Virus record (IMG/VR): IMGVR_UViG_3300006033_000027
Span: 1,322-65,321 of that record
Reading direction: 5' to 3' (one strand)
DNA: 64,000 nucleotides
Source: a virus
Lineage: Duplodnaviria; Caudoviricetes
This document shows, one piece after another, positions 19,184 to 59,275 of the stretch (position 1 is the first letter of the stretch; each line of letters opens with the position of its first letter). Under the pieces are notes generated by a model that saw only the letters and a list, made by a program, of their open reading frames with translations, was not told the DNA's origin and made no database searches. The position numbers were made by a program, and so were the translations under genes.

Positions 19184-19313
19184 TTCGAAAGCCGGATTGA
19201 TCCGGTTATCTCTTGAAAAGAAGTGGTTCTGGGTTCGAATCCCAGTCGGCTCATTGAGTCGGTAGCTCAACGGAAGAGCACTAAACGGTCGGGTCTCCCA
19301 ACTTGCTTTCGAA
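19184..19313 (+). ncRNA. yrlA: YrlA-like Y RNA (circularly permuted tRNA-like domain)
   Basis: Stem TTCGAAAGC/GCTTTCGAA; T-arm CTGGG TTCGAAT CCCAG, closed acceptor stem TCGGCTC-ATT-GAGTCGG, D-arm GCTC AACGGAA GAGC. Confidence 0.88.
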
Positions 19314-19318
19314 AAATC

Positions 19319-19434
19319 GTGGTGGCCGACGAGGTTCGGTTATCGGTAATAGATGGTTCAACTCCACCCGTCCCCGCATGGGGACTGATCCCACCCTCAG
19401 CGGTGGGCTTCCGGATTTCACACCTTGCCACTAC
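19319..19434 (+). ncRNA. Y RNA-like unit 3 (degenerate YrlA fold)
   Basis: Stem GTGGTGGC/GCCACTAC; GCCGA..CGGTTATC; T-loop TGG TTCAACT CCA; hairpins GTCCCC/GGGGAC and CCCACC/GGTGGG. Confidence 0.75.
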
Positions 19435-19440
19435 AAATTC

Positions 19441-19501
19441 TTGCGGTCGGAGTCGTCGGGTTATCTTTGGTAAATGTCCCGGTGCCACCTACTTACCGCA
19501 A
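19441..19501 (+). ncRNA. Minimal Y RNA-like unit 4
   Basis: Stem TTGCGGT/ACCGCAA; GTCGGAG..CGGGTTATC and CCCG..CTACTTAC. Confidence 0.7.
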
Positions 19502-19531
19502 ATCACACAGAAAGAAGGAGGTTCAGCAACA

Positions 19532-21106
19532 ATGACTGCCAGTGTTCTCCAGGGTATCCGCCCGAATGAAACCGTCCAGACCGAGCAGGCCCGGGAAGAT
19601 CAGGTCAAGAACAACGCCGGGGGTTTCGTCTTCGAGATCAGCCCTCTCCAGCGGTTCCGCCGCTTCCTCATTCTCGGCACTGAGGCTTCGACTTACTACC
19701 AGTCGGCCCCGGCTCTCTCGCGTGAGAACGCTCAGAACCTCTTCGCCCTGCTCGGATCGGACCACCGCGGCGTGGTCAATGAGATCCTGGAGGTCTCCAC
19801 CAACGGACTCGCTCCCCGGCAGGAGCCCACGCTCTTTGCGTATGCGGCTGCCGTCAGTCCGGAATTCGGCTCGGTCGAGGACCGCACCTACGCGCTGTCC
19901 CTCTTCAACCAGATCGTGCGGACGGGTACCCACCTGTTCACCTTCCTGGGCTTCGTGGAGCAGTTCCGAGGCTGGGGTACGGCTCTGCGCCGTGCCGTTG
20001 CGGACTGGTATCTCTCGAAGGAGCCGGACAAGCTCGCCTATCAGGTGGTCAAGTACAAGCAGCGCGAGGGTTGGTCCCATCGGGATGCCCTGCGTCTGTC
20101 CCACCCGAAGGCGGACAACTGGGACACCAACGACATCTTCGGCTACATCACCCAGAACGGTGAGACCAGCAACAGTCTGATCGAGGCTGCCCGGGGCGTC
20201 CATGACGGTTCGGTGTCGATCTCCGCGGGCATCGAGGCTGGCCTTCCGTGGGAGGCTCTGCCGTCTGAGGCACTGACCGAAGCGAAGACCTGGGAGGCCC
20301 TGCTGGAGCACAACTCCGTGCCCCTTGGCGCCCTGGTCCGACAACTTGGCCGACTGACCAACCTGGATCTGCTGAAGCCGTTCGCGGACACCAAGAGCAC
20401 GATCCTGGGGCTGCTGCGTGACGAGCGCAACATCCTGAAGTCGCGCATCCACCCGTTCAACCTGCTCAACGCCTGGTACACCTACCGGAGTGGCCGTGGC
20501 TTCCGAGGCAATGCCTCCTGGAACCCGGACGGTGACGTGGTGGCGGCTCTGGAGGCTGCGTTCTACACCTCCTTCCCGAACGTCAAGCCCGCGGGGAAGA
20601 ACACCCTCGTGGCTCTGGACGTGTCCGGCTCGATGGGTTGGGATACGATCAACAACTCGGCCCTGACCCCGCGTGAAGCGTCGGCAGCAATGGCCCTGGT
20701 TACAGTGAAGACGGAGCCGAACACGCATGTGGTTGCGTTCTCGACCTCACTTACTCCGTTGCCCATCGCGTCTGCATCCACCCTGGATGAGACACTGCGG
20801 ATCGTGGACAGCGTTCGAATGGGTGGCACCGATGTCTCCCTGCCGATCCTGTACGCACAGGAGCGTGGTCTCCAGGTGGATACCTTCATCAGCTACACGG
20901 ACAACGAGACGTGGAGCGGTCGGATTCACCCCTACCAGGCCCTCACGCAGTACCGGAAGTCTTCGGGTCGCTTTGCGAAGAACGTGGTGGTCGGAATGAC
21001 TGCCACTGGATTCTCCGTGGCGGACCCCCGAGACCCGGGCTCGCTCGATGTGGTCGGCTTCGATTCGTCGGCGCCCTCGGTGATCTCTGAGTTCTCTCGG
21101 GGTTGA
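19532..21106 (+). CDS. rsr: Ro60/Rsr TROVE-vWA RNA-binding protein
   Basis: QVKNNAGGFVF..RFLILGTE..YY; KYKQREGWSHRDALRLSH; RIHP; MIDAS DVSGSM; TDNETW; VVGFD. Start after AAGGAGG SD. Confidence 0.95.
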   Translation: MTASVLQGIRPNETVQTEQAREDQVKNNAGGFVFEISPLQRFRRFLILGTEASTYYQSAPALSRENAQNLFALLGSDHRGVVNEILEVSTNGLAPRQEPTLFAYAAAVSPEFGSVEDRTYALSLFNQIVRTGTHLFTFLGFVEQFRGWGTALRRAVADWYLSKEPDKLAYQVVKYKQREGWSHRDALRLSHPKADNWDTNDIFGYITQNGETSNSLIEAARGVHDGSVSISAGIEAGLPWEALPSEALTEAKTWEALLEHNSVPLGALVRQLGRLTNLDLLKPFADTKSTILGLLRDERNILKSRIHPFNLLNAWYTYRSGRGFRGNASWNPDGDVVAALEAAFYTSFPNVKPAGKNTLVALDVSGSMGWDTINNSALTPREASAAMALVTVKTEPNTHVVAFSTSLTPLPIASASTLDETLRIVDSVRMGGTDVSLPILYAQERGLQVDTFISYTDNETWSGRIHPYQALTQYRKSSGRFAKNVVVGMTATGFSVADPRDPGSLDVVGFDSSAPSVISEFSRG

Positions 21107-56002: not shown

Positions 56003-56430
56003 TGTCCACCTCCACAGGAGCACGGCCAAGGAGACCCCTCCGGGTGAACACAACCCTCCTTGCCGTTCGGAGTCAGTTCGAAGCCTCCCTCGATGGAGTC
56101 CTGTGTATCCGCAGCCTTGTCCCACTGAGCCGCCAGGGCAATAAACTGGTCCGCTCGCATCCGGTTATCTACCGAGAGATCATAGGTCTTAGCCGCAACC
56201 GAGCGAGCCGCAAAATGAGCCGCCAGGGATCGATAGGCATTCGCCACCGCCCGGGGTCCAAACTCGCCACCGGACAGTGCCAGAAGGGATTCCAACTCGG
56301 TATCCGAGAAGTAGTCGTAGTTTGCGGTGTTCCCTACGATGTTCGTCGCGTTGGTATCACCGATGGCGCCGCGGAGGGATGCGACATCCTGATTCGGATT
56401 GGAGGTGTAGGGGTAATATCCGGTGGGCAT
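55984..56430 (-). CDS. Head-tail adaptor
   Basis: LR..IGDT..FSDTELESLL..A..YDLSVD. Confidence 0.75.
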   Translation of the reverse strand: MPTGYYPYTSNPNQDVASLRGAIGDTNATNIVGNTANYDYFSDTELESLLALSGGEFGPRAVANAYRSLAAHFAARSVAAKTYDLSVDNRMRADQFIALAAQWDKAADTQDSIEGGFELTPNGKEGCVHPEGSPWPCSCGGGHCFPVQ

Positions 56431-56452
56431 GATGCCTCCATTCTACCAGTCG

Positions 56453-56538
56453 CGGTGTGCGGAGGGCTCGAACCCCAATCCCCGAGAGGATCGTTCACCT
56501 TAGCAGGATGACCCACCCCCGCGGGTGGTTCACACACC
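56453..56538 (-). tRNA. tRNA-Ser(GCT)
   Basis: TCATC CTGCTAA GGTGA; long variable arm; G73. Confidence 0.82.
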
Positions 56539-56539
56539 T

Positions 56540-56625
56540 TGGCGGAACGCGGAGGAATCGAACCCCTGCCCCGAAGGACCCCCGGTTTTCGAGACCGGCG
56601 CCGGACCATCCCAGCTTCACGCTCC
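56540..56625 (-). tRNA. tRNA-Ser(CGA)
   Basis: CCGGT CTCGAAA ACCGG; variable arm; GCCA end. Confidence 0.88.
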
Positions 56626-56626
56626 G

Positions 56627-56703
56627 TGGAGCCCCAGGCAGGAGTCGAACCCGCAACGTCCTGCTTACAGGGCAGGCATTCTAGCCAGTTGAATTACTAG
56701 GGC
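56627..56703 (-). tRNA. tRNA-Thr(TGT)
   Basis: CCTGC CCTGTAA GCAGG (C33); TCCA end. Confidence 0.88.
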
Positions 56704-57130
56704 TTGTGTCCGCGTAAGACCAACCACCACGCTCATAGGTCTGGATCGCGTGGCAATTCCGACACCGCACGTCGCATTTATCTATCTCTGATCGAAGACG
56801 ATGATAGCCCGCCGATTGCCGAGCGAGGGCCATTACCCCATCTACCTTATCAGAACCCTCTCGGTGGTCGAACTCTAGAACACGGACATCTGTATTGCCG
56901 CAATCGACGCACCCCGTCTTCAAGAACCCCCGGCAGAACTCGATCTTTTGTTGCCGCTGACGCCGATTGTTTTTCCGCAATGACTCTTTACGTCGGGTGT
57001 TTACGGTGTAGTTCTTTTTGTTCCAGCGAGAGACACAAGACTTGCATCTCCGATGGCGAACTCCGGCTTTCTTATCCCTGAAACTGAAGTTCTCACTCAC
57101 CTGCTCCAAACCACATTCACTACAAATCAT
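56681..57130 (-). CDS. HNH endonuclease (tRNA associated)
   Basis: CVDCG..VLEFDH..KCDVRCRNCH; paralog of 2997-3431; leaderless TGATAGTAT promoter. Confidence 0.88.
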   Translation of the reverse strand: MICSECGLEQVSENFSFRDKKAGVRHRRCKSCVSRWNKKNYTVNTRRKESLRKNNRRQRQQKIEFCRGFLKTGCVDCGNTDVRVLEFDHREGSDKVDGVMALARQSAGYHRLRSEIDKCDVRCRNCHAIQTYERGGWSYADTSPSNSTG

Positions 57131-57165
57131 TGAGACATACTATCAGACTGAAACATTCAAAAATA

Positions 57166-57202
57166 TTTCAACCGAACGCTCTACCAACTGAGCTAAGGCC
57201 GG
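57166..57202 (-). pseudogene. Truncated tRNA-Phe(GAA), 5' half only
   Basis: CCGGCCT TAGCTCAGTTGGTAGAGC G TTCGG TTGAAA, then an abrupt AT-rich HNH leader. Confidence 0.8.
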
Positions 57203-57207
57203 ATCAG

Positions 57208-57282
57208 CGCCCCCAGCGGGATTTGAACCCGCGGTCTTCACCGTGACGGGGTGACGGGGACTCCAGACTCCCCTATGAGGAC
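57208..57282 (-). tRNA. tRNA-Asp(GTC)
   Basis: TCACC CCGTCAC GGTGA (C33); GCGGG TTCAAAT CCCGC. Confidence 0.88.
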
Positions 57283-57287
57283 AATCG

Positions 57288-57362
57288 TCTAGGTGGCAGG
57301 ATTCGAACCTGCGATCTCCTACGTCCGAGGTAGGCAGGATGTCCAAGCTTCCCTACACCTAG
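57288..57362 (-). tRNA. tRNA-Pro(CGG)
   Basis: CTAGGTG/CACCTAG-A; CCTAC CTCGGAC GTAGG. Confidence 0.9.
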
Positions 57363-57431
57363 ATGGCCCGTTTCTGATCCCACGGAGGGCTAGACCGTGT
57401 CACCAGTTGAGCTTGTGGCTCTTCTGAATCG

Positions 57432-57510
57432 TGGGCCCGTGGGGAGTCGAACCCCGTCCATCTCCGTTCCGCAAGCGGTCTTCCGAAAATGTCGAAACCA
57501 ATCCAGGCCC
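57432..57510 (-). ncRNA. Mini-tmRNA (tRNA-like domain only)
   Basis: GGGCCTG GATTGGTTTCGAC ATTTTCG..CGGAGAT GGAC GGGGTTCGACTCCCC ACGGGCCCA. Confidence 0.7.
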
Positions 57511-57512
57511 AA

Positions 57513-57593
57513 GTCCCGAGAGCGTTGGGGGTCACTTCCGAAGTTCGCGGAATCGAACCGCTATCACCCTTTCAACCGGCTACTCCCGGAGAC
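57513..57593 (-). ncRNA. Orphan T-loop-containing structured RNA
   Basis: Stem GTCTCCGGGAG/CTCTCGGGAC enclosing GCGG TTCGATT CCGC and ACTT CGG AAGT. Confidence 0.5.
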
Positions 57594-57631
57594 AGAGGTT
57601 AGCGTATCAGATCCAATACGTCGAGCACAAG

Positions 57632-57702
57632 CACCCCGTAGACGAATCGAACGCCTGCCAAGGGGTTTGGAAGCCCTTGTGCTACCACTACACCAACGAG
57701 AT
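57632..57702 (-). tRNA. tRNA-Trp(CCA)
   Basis: ATCTCGT/ACGGGGT-G; loop TTCCAAA with C31xC39 mismatch. Confidence 0.85.
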
Positions 57703-57755
57703 AGGGTGCCCCGTGTAGCTGACTGGTCTAGATTCGTGGGGTGGACGGGCTAGAC

Positions 57756-57980
57756 TTACGCCTCGTCAGTCACCCAGGTGAGGACACCACTGACGCTCTT
57801 CAACGTCTGGGTCTCGCCGTCGTCGTAGCCGGAGATCGCCTCGAAGTAGGCTGAGATATCCGCATCCACGTCTGTCGTACTAGGCACAGGCCCAACCACG
57901 AGAAAAGGCTGGGGGACATACGCAGACTCGTAGTCCTCGGCATCAACCTGGGTCAGAGTGATCGGCTTGGGATCGGTCAT
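57756..57980 (-). CDS. Small virion-associated hypothetical protein
   Basis: AGGAG SD; directly after capsid gene. Confidence 0.65.
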   Translation of the reverse strand: MTDPKPITLTQVDAEDYESAYVPQPFLVVGPVPSTTDVDADISAYFEAISGYDDGETQTLKSVSGVLTWVTDEA

Positions 57981-58026
57981 ATGTGAACTCCTAAGAAAGT
58001 CTTACCAGACTAGTCTACCAGAAACG

Positions 58027-58057
58027 AGAGAACCCCCAGCCGAAGCCAGGGGTTCTC
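58027..58057 (-). terminator. Intrinsic terminator after major capsid gene
   Basis: GAGAACCCC..GGGGTTCTC inverted repeat. Confidence 0.7.
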
Positions 58058-58075
58058 ATCTAGGTTAGTCAGGGA

Positions 58076-59275
58076 TTACGGGGTGATAACTCCGTCGCCG
58101 TCGCTAAATACCGCGTACTCCGGGTTCCATCCGAGACCACCCGAGATCACACGACCGCGCAGGGCCGCGCTGTCGGTGTCGAAGCTACCCTCGAACGGGG
58201 GCACAGTGCCTCCGCCGACGTAGTTCCCAGTCACGTTCTGGACCCGGACCTCCGGACCCTCGTGACCGCGCAGGCGACCCAGGTTGTAGAACCGCTTCTG
58301 AGTCGGAACGGCTCCCTTGGCCGGGACCAGAGCCCACTGGGTTCCAGTCAGGTAGTCGGTCTCGATCACACCGCTGATTCCGGTGAAGGGGCTGAAGCCA
58401 CGGACACCCAGATCCCGGTTGCCGTCCTGGATTCCACGGAGGAACAAGGACTGCATCTGGAAGTTCACCGCATCCGAGGTGCCGGTCGGAACCAGAAGGT
58501 TGTACGAGCGGACCCGCACCTTCCGACCAGCGATCTCGCGCTGCTTCGCCTGAGTCAGGGCCAGGGCGATAGCCGCAGCGGTAGCCGGGGCGTCAGCCGG
58601 GACAGCCACACCGTCCAGCGTAGTACCCGCATCCAGGTGGTTCGCCGGGGTGTCGATGAATGAGATCAGGCCGTTCCAGGCGTCCCACTCTTCCCGATCC
58701 AGCAGGAATTCGGTGATGATCCCCGGAAGCTGGGGCACGATCTCACCCGCGTCAGCGACAATGCGCTCGAACGTCAGGTTGAAGCGGCCACCGGCCTTGT
58801 GGATCTTGCCACCCGCAGCCAACTCACCCGCGAACTTGAATTCGGGGTAGGGCGAGCCCTCGGGGACGATGGGCGGCACCCAAGCGGGCTTACCCGGCTC
58901 GGTCACCGGACGCTCGAAGCCTGTCACGTTCTCGTAGTCGATGGCGTAGACCTTCGGAGCCTCGAACGAACTCACGGTCTGGACGTCAATGACATCCGAC
59001 CAGTTCCGCTCAGCGGCCTCGAACAGGTTGTCCACCTCAACGGCGACAAGGTGAGTGAACCCGAAGATGAAGTCGTCACCTGTGGTCAGAGTCTCACCGA
59101 AGCGAACTCCCAGGTGGCGCTTGAACTCGGCCTCAGCCAGCGGGTCACCCTTGCGAATTCCTTCGAGGATCTGGTCCGCAGCAACCAGCTTGCGAGCATC
59201 GACACCGACCGGCAGCGGCACACGTCCGCCGTTAGTCAGCTTCTCTTCCAGTTGCTTATCCAAGGTTGACTCCAA
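58076..59275 (-). CDS. Major capsid protein
   Basis: About 395-399 aa; VPEGSPYPE..LLVP..EGSFDTD; alternative TTG start at 59263. Confidence 0.88.
   Translation of the reverse strand: MESTLDKQLEEKLTNGGRVPLPVGVDARKLVAADQILEGIRKGDPLAEAEFKRHLGVRFGETLTTGDDFIFGFTHLVAVEVDNLFEAAERNWSDVIDVQTVSSFEAPKVYAIDYENVTGFERPVTEPGKPAWVPPIVPEGSPYPEFKFAGELAAGGKIHKAGGRFNLTFERIVADAGEIVPQLPGIITEFLLDREEWDAWNGLISFIDTPANHLDAGTTLDGVAVPADAPATAAAIALALTQAKQREIAGRKVRVRSYNLLVPTGTSDAVNFQMQSLFLRGIQDGNRDLGVRGFSPFTGISGVIETDYLTGTQWALVPAKGAVPTQKRFYNLGRLRGHEGPEVRVQNVTGNYVGGGTVPPFEGSFDTDSAALRGRVISGGLGWNPEYAVFSDGDGVITP

What the first reader, a model, noticed from the sequence alone, without database searches (positions are those of the whole stretch)
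57432..57510. Mini-tmRNA: tRNA-like domain with no tag reading frame and no G3-U70 pair
Seen: the tmRNA-type 5' end GGGCCTG-GATTGGTTTCGAC and 3' end GGAC-GGGGTTCGACTCCCC-ACGGGCCCA are joined by helix ATTTTCG/CGGAGAT, capped by only about 17 nt. Total length is 79 nt and pair 3:70 is G-C. Known: the GG(A/U)UUCGA D-loop with no D-stem is the SmpB-binding signature, and G3-U70 is the alanylation determinant. Inference: an unchargeable SmpB decoy that blocks trans-translation, or one piece of a novel split tmRNA.
Basis: partly seen in the sequence, partly recalled or inferred. Interest (0 to 1): 0.75.

Follow-up and report, generated by a model that had tools for sequence, protein, structure and literature searches.

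The report
Phage mini-tmRNA missing its alanine pair
This 79-base phage gene is a stripped-down copy of the bacterial ribosome-rescue RNA (tmRNA) that keeps only the tRNA-like part, a type already known from one mycobacteriophage and here found to be common in viruses, and this copy is the only one seen that has lost the base pair needed to load it with alanine.

Summary
Window 57432-57510 (minus strand) is a 79-nt RNA gene with tmRNA-type 5' and 3' ends, a 7-bp helix capped by 17 nt, no tag frame, and G3:C70.

It is not a new kind. It belongs with the "TLD only" tmRNA of mycobacteriophage DS6A (in print since 2014, citing 2009 work).

A covariance model built from 33 other viral copies scores it at 68.9 bits, against 58 for DS6A and 17.3 or less for the window's real tRNAs. 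The family is large and barely annotated. I collected 100 distinct copies with strong covariation; 112 of 120 pattern matches in viral contigs were real, against 1 of 120 in bacterial genomes.

By my parse, 99 of 100 copies keep G3:U70 and all keep A73, so the family is evidently selected to be alanine-chargeable. This copy is the sole G3:C70. It is also the only one lacking the first T-stem pair.

Best reading: a copy that has lost chargeability, probably recently. At most it still soaks up host SmpB. A purpose-built uncharged decoy is possible but less likely. A split tmRNA is not supported.

Expression and SmpB binding are untested.

The parts
57432..57510 (-). Whole 79-nt TLD-only tmRNA-like gene
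   Evidence: Family model R1 scores it 68.9 bits, E 4.1e-16, matching model positions 1-78 of 78. RF00023 scores it 38 bits.
57504..57510 (-). Acceptor stem, 5' strand GGGCCUG (positions 1-7)
   Evidence: Sequence read. It forms 7 of 7 pairs with 57433-57439. The helix shows covariation across the family.
57491..57503 (-). D-loop analogue GAUUGGUUUCGAC, with no D stem
   Evidence: The GG..U..UCGAC columns are invariant in the 100-sequence alignment.
57484..57490 (-). P2 helix, 5' strand AUUUUCG
   Evidence: Pairs 7 of 7 with 57460-57466. All 7 family pairs show changes on both sides.
57467..57483 (-). 17-nt cap GAAGA-CCG-CUUG-CGG-AA. The small hairpin occupies 57469-57478.
   Evidence: The same A-rich loop plus CCGC..GCGG hairpin is present in DS6A and in most relatives.
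57460..57466 (-). P2 helix, 3' strand CGGAGAU
57456..57459 (-). GGAC linker (variable-loop analogue)
   Evidence: Its first G and its A are invariant in the family; the second G and the C are conserved in at least 90% of rows.
57440..57455 (-). T arm GGGG-UUCGACU-CCCC plus an unpaired A (57440). The first T-stem pair is missing.
   Evidence: The model alignment shows a 1-nt deletion at the first T-stem position. This is the only one of 100 rows with a gap there.
57433..57439 (-). Acceptor stem, 3' strand CGGGCCC. Base 57435 is the C that pairs with G3 (tRNA position 70).
   Evidence: It is the only G:C at pair 3:70 among 100 distinct family members.
57432..57432 (-). Discriminator A73. The next bases are CGA, so CCA is not encoded.
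   Evidence: All 100 retained elements have A73. 25 of the 106 parsed candidates encode CCA.
57207..57702 (-). Surrounding same-strand tRNA array: tRNA-Trp 57631-57702, tRNA-Pro 57287-57362, tRNA-Asp 57207-57282
   Evidence: ARAGORN and Rfam.
58076..59275 (-). Major capsid gene upstream on the same strand, followed by a terminator-like hairpin at 58028-58057
   Evidence: blastn matches to annotated major capsid genes of Microbacterium phages. Terminator scan.

Best explanation
This is a member of the phage "TLD-only" tmRNA family, first noted in mycobacteriophage DS6A. The family RNA is a roughly 70-83-nt molecule. It keeps the tmRNA acceptor stem, the stemless D-loop analogue, the GGAC linker and the T arm. 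Everything else is replaced by a 7-bp helix with a small capped hairpin, so it has no tag reading frame.

The gene sits in a same-strand tRNA array just downstream of the major capsid gene. It is presumably cut out of that transcript like a tRNA (inferred).

The family as a whole is kept alanine-chargeable, with near-invariant G3:U70 and A73. That implies the normal product is alanylated. With host SmpB it would enter stalled ribosomes in competition with host tmRNA, but offer no tag (inferred).

This copy has G3:C70 and lacks the first T-stem pair. By the established AlaRS identity rule it should not be charged (inferred). The most likely reading is a loss-of-charging allele, probably recent. 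Every other conserved feature, including the SmpB-contacting elbow, is still intact. Its residual activity, if any, would be to bind and sequester host SmpB.
For: Identity with the family:
- R1 was built from 33 other viral copies. It scores this element at 68.9 bits, against 58 for DS6A and 17.3 or less for the window's own tRNAs.
- RF00023 matches this element at 38 bits and DS6A at 43.2 bits. Both match the ends only.
- The cap resembles DS6A's.

The family RNA structure is real:
- 95.5% of cells are paired, against 67.9% in shuffles, and 17 of 22 pairs show compensatory changes (33 sequences).
- On 100 distinct sequences, 96.5% are paired against 64.0% in shuffles.

Chargeability is conserved:
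- My parse gives G3:U70 in 99 of the 100 retained distinct elements and A73 in all of them.
- On the model alignment the counts are GU 96, AU 3 and GC 1. The 3 AU rows are a 2-nt register shift.
- Under a strict filter, all 86 distinct elements from 112 of 120 loci have G:U and A73.
- Whole-collection scans for C70, or for A or G at position 70, found 0 other viral contigs.

This copy compared with the family:
- It deviates at only 1 of 30 columns that are at least 95% conserved, and that column is U70.
- It is the only row lacking the first T-stem pair.
- Its P2 helix (7 of 7 pairs) and cap hairpin are intact.

Other support:
- The sequence is confirmed by a second assembly at depth 14.3.
- Passages in PMC4131195 and PMC11915505 say a DS6A-like molecule, chargeable or not, strongly inhibits tmRNA in E. 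coli, perhaps by titrating SmpB.
- The phage record has no SmpB of its own, so any partner would be the host's.
Against: - No expression data exist. No RNA run is listed, and I could test neither SmpB binding nor charging.
- "Recent loss" and "selected decoy" predict the same sequence picture. No close relative of this phage was found to date the change.
- Two defects in one 79-nt gene are too few for statistics.
- The fold energy alone is unremarkable (z -1.67).
The census is therefore partial and could miss divergent non-G:U subfamilies.
- The record is only about 73% complete, so the absence of SmpB or other partner genes is not proof.
Confidence: 0.5

Rival explanations
1. It is a dedicated uncharged decoy. 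The lineage has switched from an alanine-charged, ribosome-entering RNA to a pure SmpB sponge that shuts down host trans-translation. The acceptor/T minihelix is then no longer under selection for charging.
For: - Both unique defects lie in the acceptor/T minihelix, which serves charging and EF-Tu binding.
- 29 of 30 highly conserved columns are intact, as are the P2 helix and the cap.
- A passage in PMC4131195 says a non-chargeable TLD-like RNA still strongly inhibits tmRNA in E. coli.
Against: - If sponging alone were enough, non-G:U copies should be common. A single substitution produces one.
- None was found apart from this copy: 86 of 86 distinct elements under the strict filter are G:U, and two whole-collection scans gave 0 hits.
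- The one metagenome hit was a chance match.
- With only two changes, the clustering of defects is not significant.
Confidence: 0.3
2. It is still aminoacylated, either weakly by AlaRS or by another synthetase that reads the acceptor stem and A73. It would then work like the rest of the family.
For: - A73, a 7-bp acceptor stem and the T loop are intact.
- The first T-stem position could be read as a C-A mismatch that keeps helix length (my reading).
Against: - G3:U70 is the major AlaRS determinant for tRNA-Ala and tmRNA (established knowledge, recalled).
- It is near-invariant in this family.
- No anticodon is available for other synthetases.
Confidence: 0.1
3. It is one piece of a split or permuted tmRNA, or a fresh deletion of a full-length phage tmRNA.
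For: RF00023 matches model positions 1-374 with the middle missing. Some actinophages carry full-length tmRNAs with tag peptides.
Against: - The 5' and 3' tRNA-like halves are in the normal order within one 79-nt gene.
- The short P2 helix plus cap is a conserved, covarying design in 100 distinct copies.
- The window has no match to the permuted-tmRNA models at gathering score. Near the element those models match only short T-loop fragments.
- The only substantial RF00023 match in the 65-kb record is this element.
Confidence: 0.03
4. It is not a functional RNA at all. It could be an odd tRNA pseudogene, or a copied fragment of host ssrA used as an integration site (attP).
For: It lies in a tRNA array that also holds a tRNA-remnant-like spacer. 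Phages often integrate at ssrA (a passage in PMC9004378 mentions this).
Against: - No tyrosine or serine integrase is present in the record.
- An attP would need only the 3' part of ssrA. Here the 5' strand, the D-loop analogue and P2 are all present and covary in the family.
- The tRNA detectors do not call it, whereas the family model does.
Confidence: 0.05

Closest known systems
Mycobacteriophage DS6A "TLD only" tmRNA (tmRNA Website tmID 11587; Phage__Mycobacterium.9)
   Same: - Same architecture: 7-bp acceptor stem, stemless D-loop analogue ending UCGAC, short P2 helix, A-rich loop plus a CCGC..GCGG hairpin cap, T arm and A73, with no tag frame.
- About 80 nt long.
- Both fall below the Rfam tmRNA gathering score (43.2 and 38 bits).
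- Both are hit by the family model (58 and 68.9 bits).
   Different: - DS6A keeps G3:U70 and a 5-bp T stem. This copy has G3:C70 and a 4-bp T stem.
- DS6A's gene stands alone before a DNA polymerase III gene. This one is in a tRNA array after the capsid gene.
Standard bacterial and phage tmRNA (SsrA, Rfam RF00023)
   Same: The tRNA-like domain has the same sequence signature at both ends, and the same discriminator A.
   Different: This element has no mRNA-like domain, no resume codon or tag frame, no pseudoknots and no G3:U70. It is 79 nt; the RF00023 model is 374 positions long.
Tag-less tmRNAs of mitochondria (Rfam RF02544) and of some plastids
   Same: They are reduced to little more than the tRNA-like domain, with no tag frame (passage in PMC11915505).
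   Different: Those are organellar, and the mitochondrial form works with a nucleus-encoded SmpB. No sequence match was detected, but the search was uninformative because its controls were silent.
TLD-like molecule tested in E. coli (Mao et al. 2009, as cited in PMC4131195 and PMC11915505)
   Same: It is a tag-less TLD RNA. The citing passage says it inhibited endogenous tmRNA whether or not it was chargeable. That makes it the direct experimental analogue of a G3:C70 copy.
   Different: The test was done by expression in E. coli, not in the natural host. I could not read the paper itself and know it only through citing passages.
Unannotated copies in cultured actinophages (Streptomyces phages pSt2308, LuckySocke, GiJojo, Alone3, BRock; Pontimonas phage phiPsal1)
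   Same: - pSt2308 (84.6 bits) and phiPsal1 (82.1 bits) are confirmed with the family model. The other phages are known from blastn only.
- pSt2308's copy lies in a tRNA cluster. phiPsal1's lies beside the major capsid gene.
   Different: The two I inspected keep G3:U70 and a 5-bp T stem.

Membership tests
TLD-only phage tmRNA (DS6A type) | Full-length match to a structure-plus-sequence model of the family | tested here: met
   R1 was built from 33 other copies. It gives 68.9 bits, E 4.1e-16, positions 1-78 of 78. The family range is 39.6-98.1 bits.
TLD-only phage tmRNA (DS6A type) | 7-bp acceptor stem with discriminator A73 | tested here: met
   7 of 7 pairs, including U6-G67, and A at 57432.
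TLD-only phage tmRNA (DS6A type) | Stemless D-loop analogue GG..UCGAC and GGAC linker | tested here: met
   All invariant columns of the 100-sequence alignment are present.
TLD-only phage tmRNA (DS6A type) | Short P2 helix closed by a small capped hairpin, with no reading frame; total 69-83 nt | tested here: met
   7-bp P2, 17-nt cap with a 3-bp hairpin, 79 nt in total.
TLD-only phage tmRNA (DS6A type) | 5-bp T stem with UUCGA loop | tested here: not met
   The loop is present, but the first stem pair is missing. This is the only one of 100 rows with that gap.
TLD-only phage tmRNA (DS6A type) | G3:U70 alanine identity pair | tested here: not met
   G3:C70. 99 of 100 distinct relatives have G:U by my parse. 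No other C, A or G at position 70 was found in viral contigs.
TLD-only phage tmRNA (DS6A type) | Binds SmpB and interferes with trans-translation | not testable with these tools
   Known only from passages citing Mao et al. 2009.
tmRNA / SsrA (Rfam RF00023) | Match at or above the family gathering score | tested here: not met
   38 bits against 47, with only the ends matching. No call at gathering threshold. ARAGORN reports no tmRNA.
tmRNA / SsrA (Rfam RF00023) | mRNA-like domain with resume codon and tag reading frame, plus pseudoknots | tested here: not met
   Only 31 nt lie between the D-loop analogue and the GGAC linker, and all of it is helix and cap.
tmRNA / SsrA (Rfam RF00023) | G3:U70 and alanylation | tested here: not met
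   The pair is G:C. Alanylation itself cannot be tested with these tools.
Two-piece (permuted) tmRNA | The acceptor piece and the coding piece are encoded in permuted order and pair with each other | tested here: not met
   The order is normal and the gene is a single piece. There are no matches to RF01849, RF01850 or RF01851 at gathering score. Only T-loop fragments of RF01850 appear.
Canonical tRNA | Cloverleaf with D stem and anticodon arm | tested here: not met
   ARAGORN makes no call. Rfam tRNA RF00005 does not match at gathering score or among the listed matches at E up to 10. No D stem or anticodon loop appears in the fold.
Mitochondrial tag-less tmRNA (RF02544) | Match to the family model | tested here: inconclusive
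   There was no match, but the control genomes were also silent, so the search says nothing.

The most novel reading that the evidence does not exclude
This G3:C70 copy is a naturally selected, uncharged SmpB sponge. That would make it a phage anti-trans-translation decoy that has given up ribosome entry.

More broadly, TLD-only tmRNAs would be a widespread, virus-restricted and essentially unannotated device by which phages take over host ribosome rescue. They are often placed next to the capsid gene, so they would be made when capsid protein is translated in bulk.
Probability: 0.3. Interest if true: 0.7.

Novelty: new member of a known kind. Interest (0 to 1): 0.45.

Why it matters
Trans-translation by tmRNA-SmpB is the main ribosome-rescue path in bacteria. 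How phages deal with it is poorly known.

In the papers I could search, the tag-less "TLD only" form is described for phages only in DS6A. I searched "tmRNA"+"DS6A", "mini-tmRNA" and "tmRNA-like"+"phage", and three broader tmRNA and phage term sets. I read passages of PMC4131195 and PMC11915505.

Here the form turns out to be a large, structurally conserved family that is very largely viral, and standard annotators miss it. ARAGORN called 1 of 130 copies. Rfam scored the two copies I tested below threshold.

The near-total conservation of G3:U70 argues that these RNAs act as charged molecules on the ribosome and not merely as SmpB sponges. That is a testable refinement of the published idea.

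The present copy is a natural non-chargeable allele. It is a useful comparison point, but probably not a new mechanism.

They may list more phage copies than the text mentions.

Tried and rejected
- **Close relatives of this phage.** Capsid-protein scans of viral contigs and metagenome contigs confirmed none. I could not see what relatives carry at this locus.
- **Over-specific patterns.** The pattern found nothing. The pattern found only DS6A.
- **Non-U70 variants.** There were 0 in viral contigs. The single metagenome hit, L372, is not a family member: no model match and no tRNA.
- **Expression.** No RNA holder is listed. The only run found is a DNA run that is probably the source sample.
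- **RF02544.** No match, but the controls were silent, so the result is uninformative.
- **Partner genes in the 65-kb record.** I found no SmpB, RF-1/ArfB-type domain, peptidyl-tRNA hydrolase, tyrosine integrase or serine recombinase. The record is about 73% complete.
- **Pfam on eight neighbouring ORFs.** Nothing passed the thresholds.
- **Promoter scan.** No sigma-70-like promoter in 56300-58200.
- **Spacer 57511-57631.** It has no significant fold (z -0.01).
- **A universal neighbour gene for the family.** None exists. The commonest neighbour occurs in 10 of 99 loci.
- **Tools and papers unavailable.** Mao et al. 2009 is not held, so I know it only from citing passages.
- **Readings rejected.** Ordinary tRNA, attP fragment, split tmRNA and recent random deletion are covered under rival explanations.

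Full report
**1. The observation**

Read on the minus strand, window 57432-57510 is a 79-nt element. In order, it has:
- a 7-nt acceptor 5' strand (GGGCCUG);
- a stemless D-loop analogue ending GGUUUCGAC;
- a 7-bp helix (AUUUUCG/CGGAGAU);
- a 17-nt cap containing a CCG-CUUG-CGG hairpin;
- the linker GGAC;
- a T arm with loop UUCGACU;
- the acceptor 3' strand (CGGGCCC) and discriminator A.

G3 pairs with C (window 57435). There is no room for a reading frame.

One detail was missed. The T stem has only four clean pairs, and an unpaired A follows it.

ARAGORN finds 11 tRNAs in the window but nothing here, and no tmRNA. Rfam at gathering thresholds also finds nothing here. With looser settings, only a generic tRNA-like model (mascRNA-menRNA) aligns the acceptor and T arm, at 23.4 bits.

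The Rfam tmRNA model RF00023 does match both ends across a huge internal deletion. It scores 38 bits, E 2.7e-15, below the 47-bit gathering score. The fold energy is not special on its own: z -1.67, with 14 of 200 shuffles as good.

**2. The sequence is not an assembly accident**

The window is most of a 65,321-base IMG/VR virus record, estimated 73% complete. One public run holds the region. It is a freshwater metagenome and probably the source sample. Its Logan contig (14,482 nt, depth 14.3) is identical over 57000-58000, with no variant letters or indels. This confirms the consensus sequence, but it is not independent of the original sample.

**3. A precedent exists in print**

- Hudson, Lau and Williams 2014 (PMC4131195; passages and Table 2 read) list "Mycobacterium phage DS6A (TLD only)". 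[quoted passage not shown] They add that a similar molecule, chargeable or not, strongly inhibits tmRNA, perhaps by titrating SmpB, citing Mao et al. 2009.
- The 2025 tmRNA database paper (PMC11915505; passages read) repeats this for "Phage__Mycobacterium.9". It mentions comparable tag-less forms in mitochondria and two plastids.
- Mao et al. 2009 itself is not held.

I located the DS6A element at JN698994 28478-28560. RF00023 scores it at 43.2 bits, also below threshold. Its layout is the same as the window element's, down to an A-rich loop and a CCGC..GCGG hairpin in the cap. Unlike the window element, it has G3:U70 and a 5-bp T stem.

**4. The family is large**

I then parsed the sequence held at that point: 250 sources, comprising those loci plus earlier ones and the window. 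The parse required the D-loop motif, a T loop, at least 4 of 5 T-stem pairs and at least 6 of 7 acceptor pairs.

That gave 106 distinct candidates. I dropped six:
- L059, L128, L053 and a second L242 hit, which are unrelated chance parses;
- L227 and L153, which are mis-registered or damaged copies.

This left 100 distinct elements of 69-81 nt.

Under a stricter filter (7 of 7 acceptor pairs, 5 of 5 T-stem pairs, a GGAC-type linker), the counts were as follows:

| Scan | Loci with an element | Distinct elements |
|---|---|---|
| Viral contigs, pattern | 112 of 120 | 86 |
| Viral contigs, looser pattern | 14 of 120 | 10 |
| Species-representative bacterial and archaeal genomes, same pattern as | 1 of 120 | 1 (a 102-nt variant in a Caldilineaceae MAG) |

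Even so, the contrast indicates a very largely viral family.

**5. The structure is supported by covariation**

On 33 copies with the same D-loop length (alignment A2), I tested my four-helix structure:
- 95.5% of cells are paired, against 67.9% in shuffles and 35.9-48.9% when partners are slid;
- 17 of 22 pairs show changes on both sides;
- all 7 P2 pairs covary.

I built covariance model R1 from these 33 sequences, without the window element. Its scores are:
- 68.9 bits for the window element (E 4.1e-16, full length);
- 58 bits for DS6A;
- 17.3 bits or less for the window's real tRNAs.

Across the fetched loci R1 finds 14 and 77 matches.

On the model alignment of 100 distinct elements (A3), 96.5% of cells are paired against 64.0% shuffled. 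That alignment is fitted to the model, so it leans towards the structure. The MAFFT-based A2 result does not have that bias.

**6. This copy is the odd one out**

*Pair 3:70.*
- By my parse, 99 of 100 elements have G3:U70 and all have A73.
- On A3 the counts are GU 96, AU 3 and GC 1.
- The three AU rows (L194, L200, L223) arise because the model match starts 2 nt inside the true 5' end. The single GC is the window element.

*T stem.* The first T-stem pair is formed in 99 rows and gapped in one, again the window element.

*Whole-collection scans.* Scans for the same core pattern ending CCCA, or ACCA/GCCA, found no other viral contig. They found one metagenome contig, which the model and ARAGORN reject as a chance match.

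*The rest of the scaffold.*
- The window element deviates at only 1 of 30 columns that are at least 95% conserved, and that column is U70.
- Its P2 helix and cap hairpin are intact.
- Its nearest relatives are only about 77% identical.
- No close relative of the phage was found through the capsid protein. The age of the two changes therefore cannot be estimated.

**7. Genomic context**

In the window the element lies in a same-strand array:
- capsid gene at 58076-59275;
- a strong terminator-like hairpin at 58028-58057;
- a 74-aa ORF;
- tRNA-Trp;
- a 120-nt spacer;
- the element;
- tRNA-Pro and tRNA-Asp;
- a 149-aa ORF;
- tRNA-Thr and two tRNA-Ser genes.

The capsid gene was recognised by blastn matches to Microbacterium phage capsid genes. 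No sigma-70-like promoter was found.

Across the family:
- 29 of 130 occurrences have a tRNA within 1 kb, and 14 have three or more;
- 98 loci have no tRNA at all in the fetched DNA;
- ARAGORN calls only 1 of 130 copies, as a tmRNA.

No neighbour gene is universal. The commonest arrangement is prohead protease, then the element, then the major capsid gene, all on one strand. It occurs in at least 14 of 99 loci. The same arrangement is seen in the cultured Pontimonas phage phiPsal1.

Cultured Streptomyces phages also carry unannotated copies. These are pSt2308, LuckySocke, GiJojo, Alone3 and BRock by blastn, and pSt2308's copy lies in a tRNA cluster. R1 confirms pSt2308 at 84.6 bits and phiPsal1 at 82.1 bits, both with G3:U70.

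The window's record encodes none of the following: SmpB, an RF-1/ArfB-type domain, peptidyl-tRNA hydrolase, a tyrosine integrase or a serine recombinase.

**8. How it most likely works**

*Shown.* The element is a member of a conserved, structured and largely viral RNA family derived from the tmRNA tRNA-like domain. The family preserves the alanine identity pair and discriminator. This copy does not.

*Established knowledge.*
- G3:U70 is the major AlaRS determinant for tRNA-Ala and tmRNA (recalled, not from a call).
- SmpB binds the TLD in place of the missing anticodon arm (passage in PMC4131195).

*Inferred for the family.* The RNA is cut from the transcript like a tRNA and receives CCA. Only 25 of 106 parsed candidates encode CCA. 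It is then alanylated and, with host SmpB, enters stalled ribosomes in competition with host tmRNA, but supplies no tag frame. If mere SmpB titration were the whole selected function, G:U would not need to be conserved, because one substitution removes it. Its near-invariance therefore argues for a charged, ribosome-entering role.

*Inferred for this copy.* It cannot be alanylated, so that role is lost. Because the SmpB-contacting features are intact, it may still bind SmpB and act as a sponge. The published E. coli result for a non-chargeable version would predict this.

My estimates are:

| Reading | Probability |
|---|---|
| Recent loss-of-charging allele with at most residual sponge activity | about 0.5 |
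| Selected uncharged decoy | about 0.3 |
| Still charged in some way | about 0.1 |
| Other readings combined | under 0.1 |

**9. Verdict**

- The element is a new member of a known but obscure kind.
- The "novel split tmRNA" reading is not supported.

The more interesting result is at family level. The DS6A-type RNA is common in viral contigs, is missed by standard annotation, and is held to alanine chargeability.

Supplementary files of the tmRNA database papers were closed, so further phage copies may already be listed there.

Noticed in passing
window 57511-57631 (-): The 120-nt spacer between tRNA-Trp and the element contains a T-arm-like GCGGUUCGAUUCCGC at 57547-57561. It has no tRNA call and no significant fold (z -0.01). 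It may be a decayed tRNA.
   Followed up: partly
window 19189-19253 (+): A weak tRNA-like match to R1 (18.9 bits) with a perfect CUGGG-UUCGAAU-CCCAG T arm and a 6-bp acceptor-like stem. It lies in the gap before the ORF 19223-21106. ARAGORN and Rfam do not call it. Fold z is -1.51.
   Followed up: partly
window 58028-58057 (-): A strong terminator-like hairpin (13 pairs, 8 of them G-C) directly after the major capsid gene. The tRNA array and the element lie downstream of it.
   Followed up: no
L134, L155, L168, L173, L233 and others; L370 (Pontimonas phage phiPsal1): A recurrent arrangement of prohead protease, TLD-only RNA and major capsid gene on one strand, in at least 14 of 99 loci. The RNA is often about 100-120 nt upstream of the capsid gene.
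   Followed up: partly
L175 5-81 and 1317-1392 (+): One viral contig carries two TLD-only copies about 1.2 kb apart, scoring 42.5 and 57.6 bits.
   Followed up: no
L153 2519-2595 (-); L227 (minus strand; position 1054 of the reverse complement): Two further imperfect copies. L153 matches the L134 element but has lost bases in the acceptor 3' strand. L227 has an off-register T loop. Damaged copies of this gene therefore do occur in viral contigs.
   Followed up: partly
L299 7741-7842 (+), Caldilineaceae MAG contig: The only hit in bacterial genome contigs that passed the parse. It is a longer (102-nt) TLD-only-like element with G3:U70 and A73. Whether it sits in a prophage was not checked.
   Followed up: no
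L197 5908-5987 (-): The single family copy, of 130, that ARAGORN reports as a tmRNA. I did not inspect why this one passes.
   Followed up: no
L371 (Streptomyces phage pSt2308 33356-33433); records H102-H107: Cultured actinophages carry family copies that are unannotated in GenBank, or that lie under a "hypothetical protein" feature (GiJojo).
   Followed up: partly
window 56544-56625 (-): Rfam's tRNA-Sec model gives 39.6 bits (below its 47-bit cut-off) on what ARAGORN calls tRNA-Ser(CGA). This is most simply a long-variable-arm tRNA-Ser.
   Followed up: no
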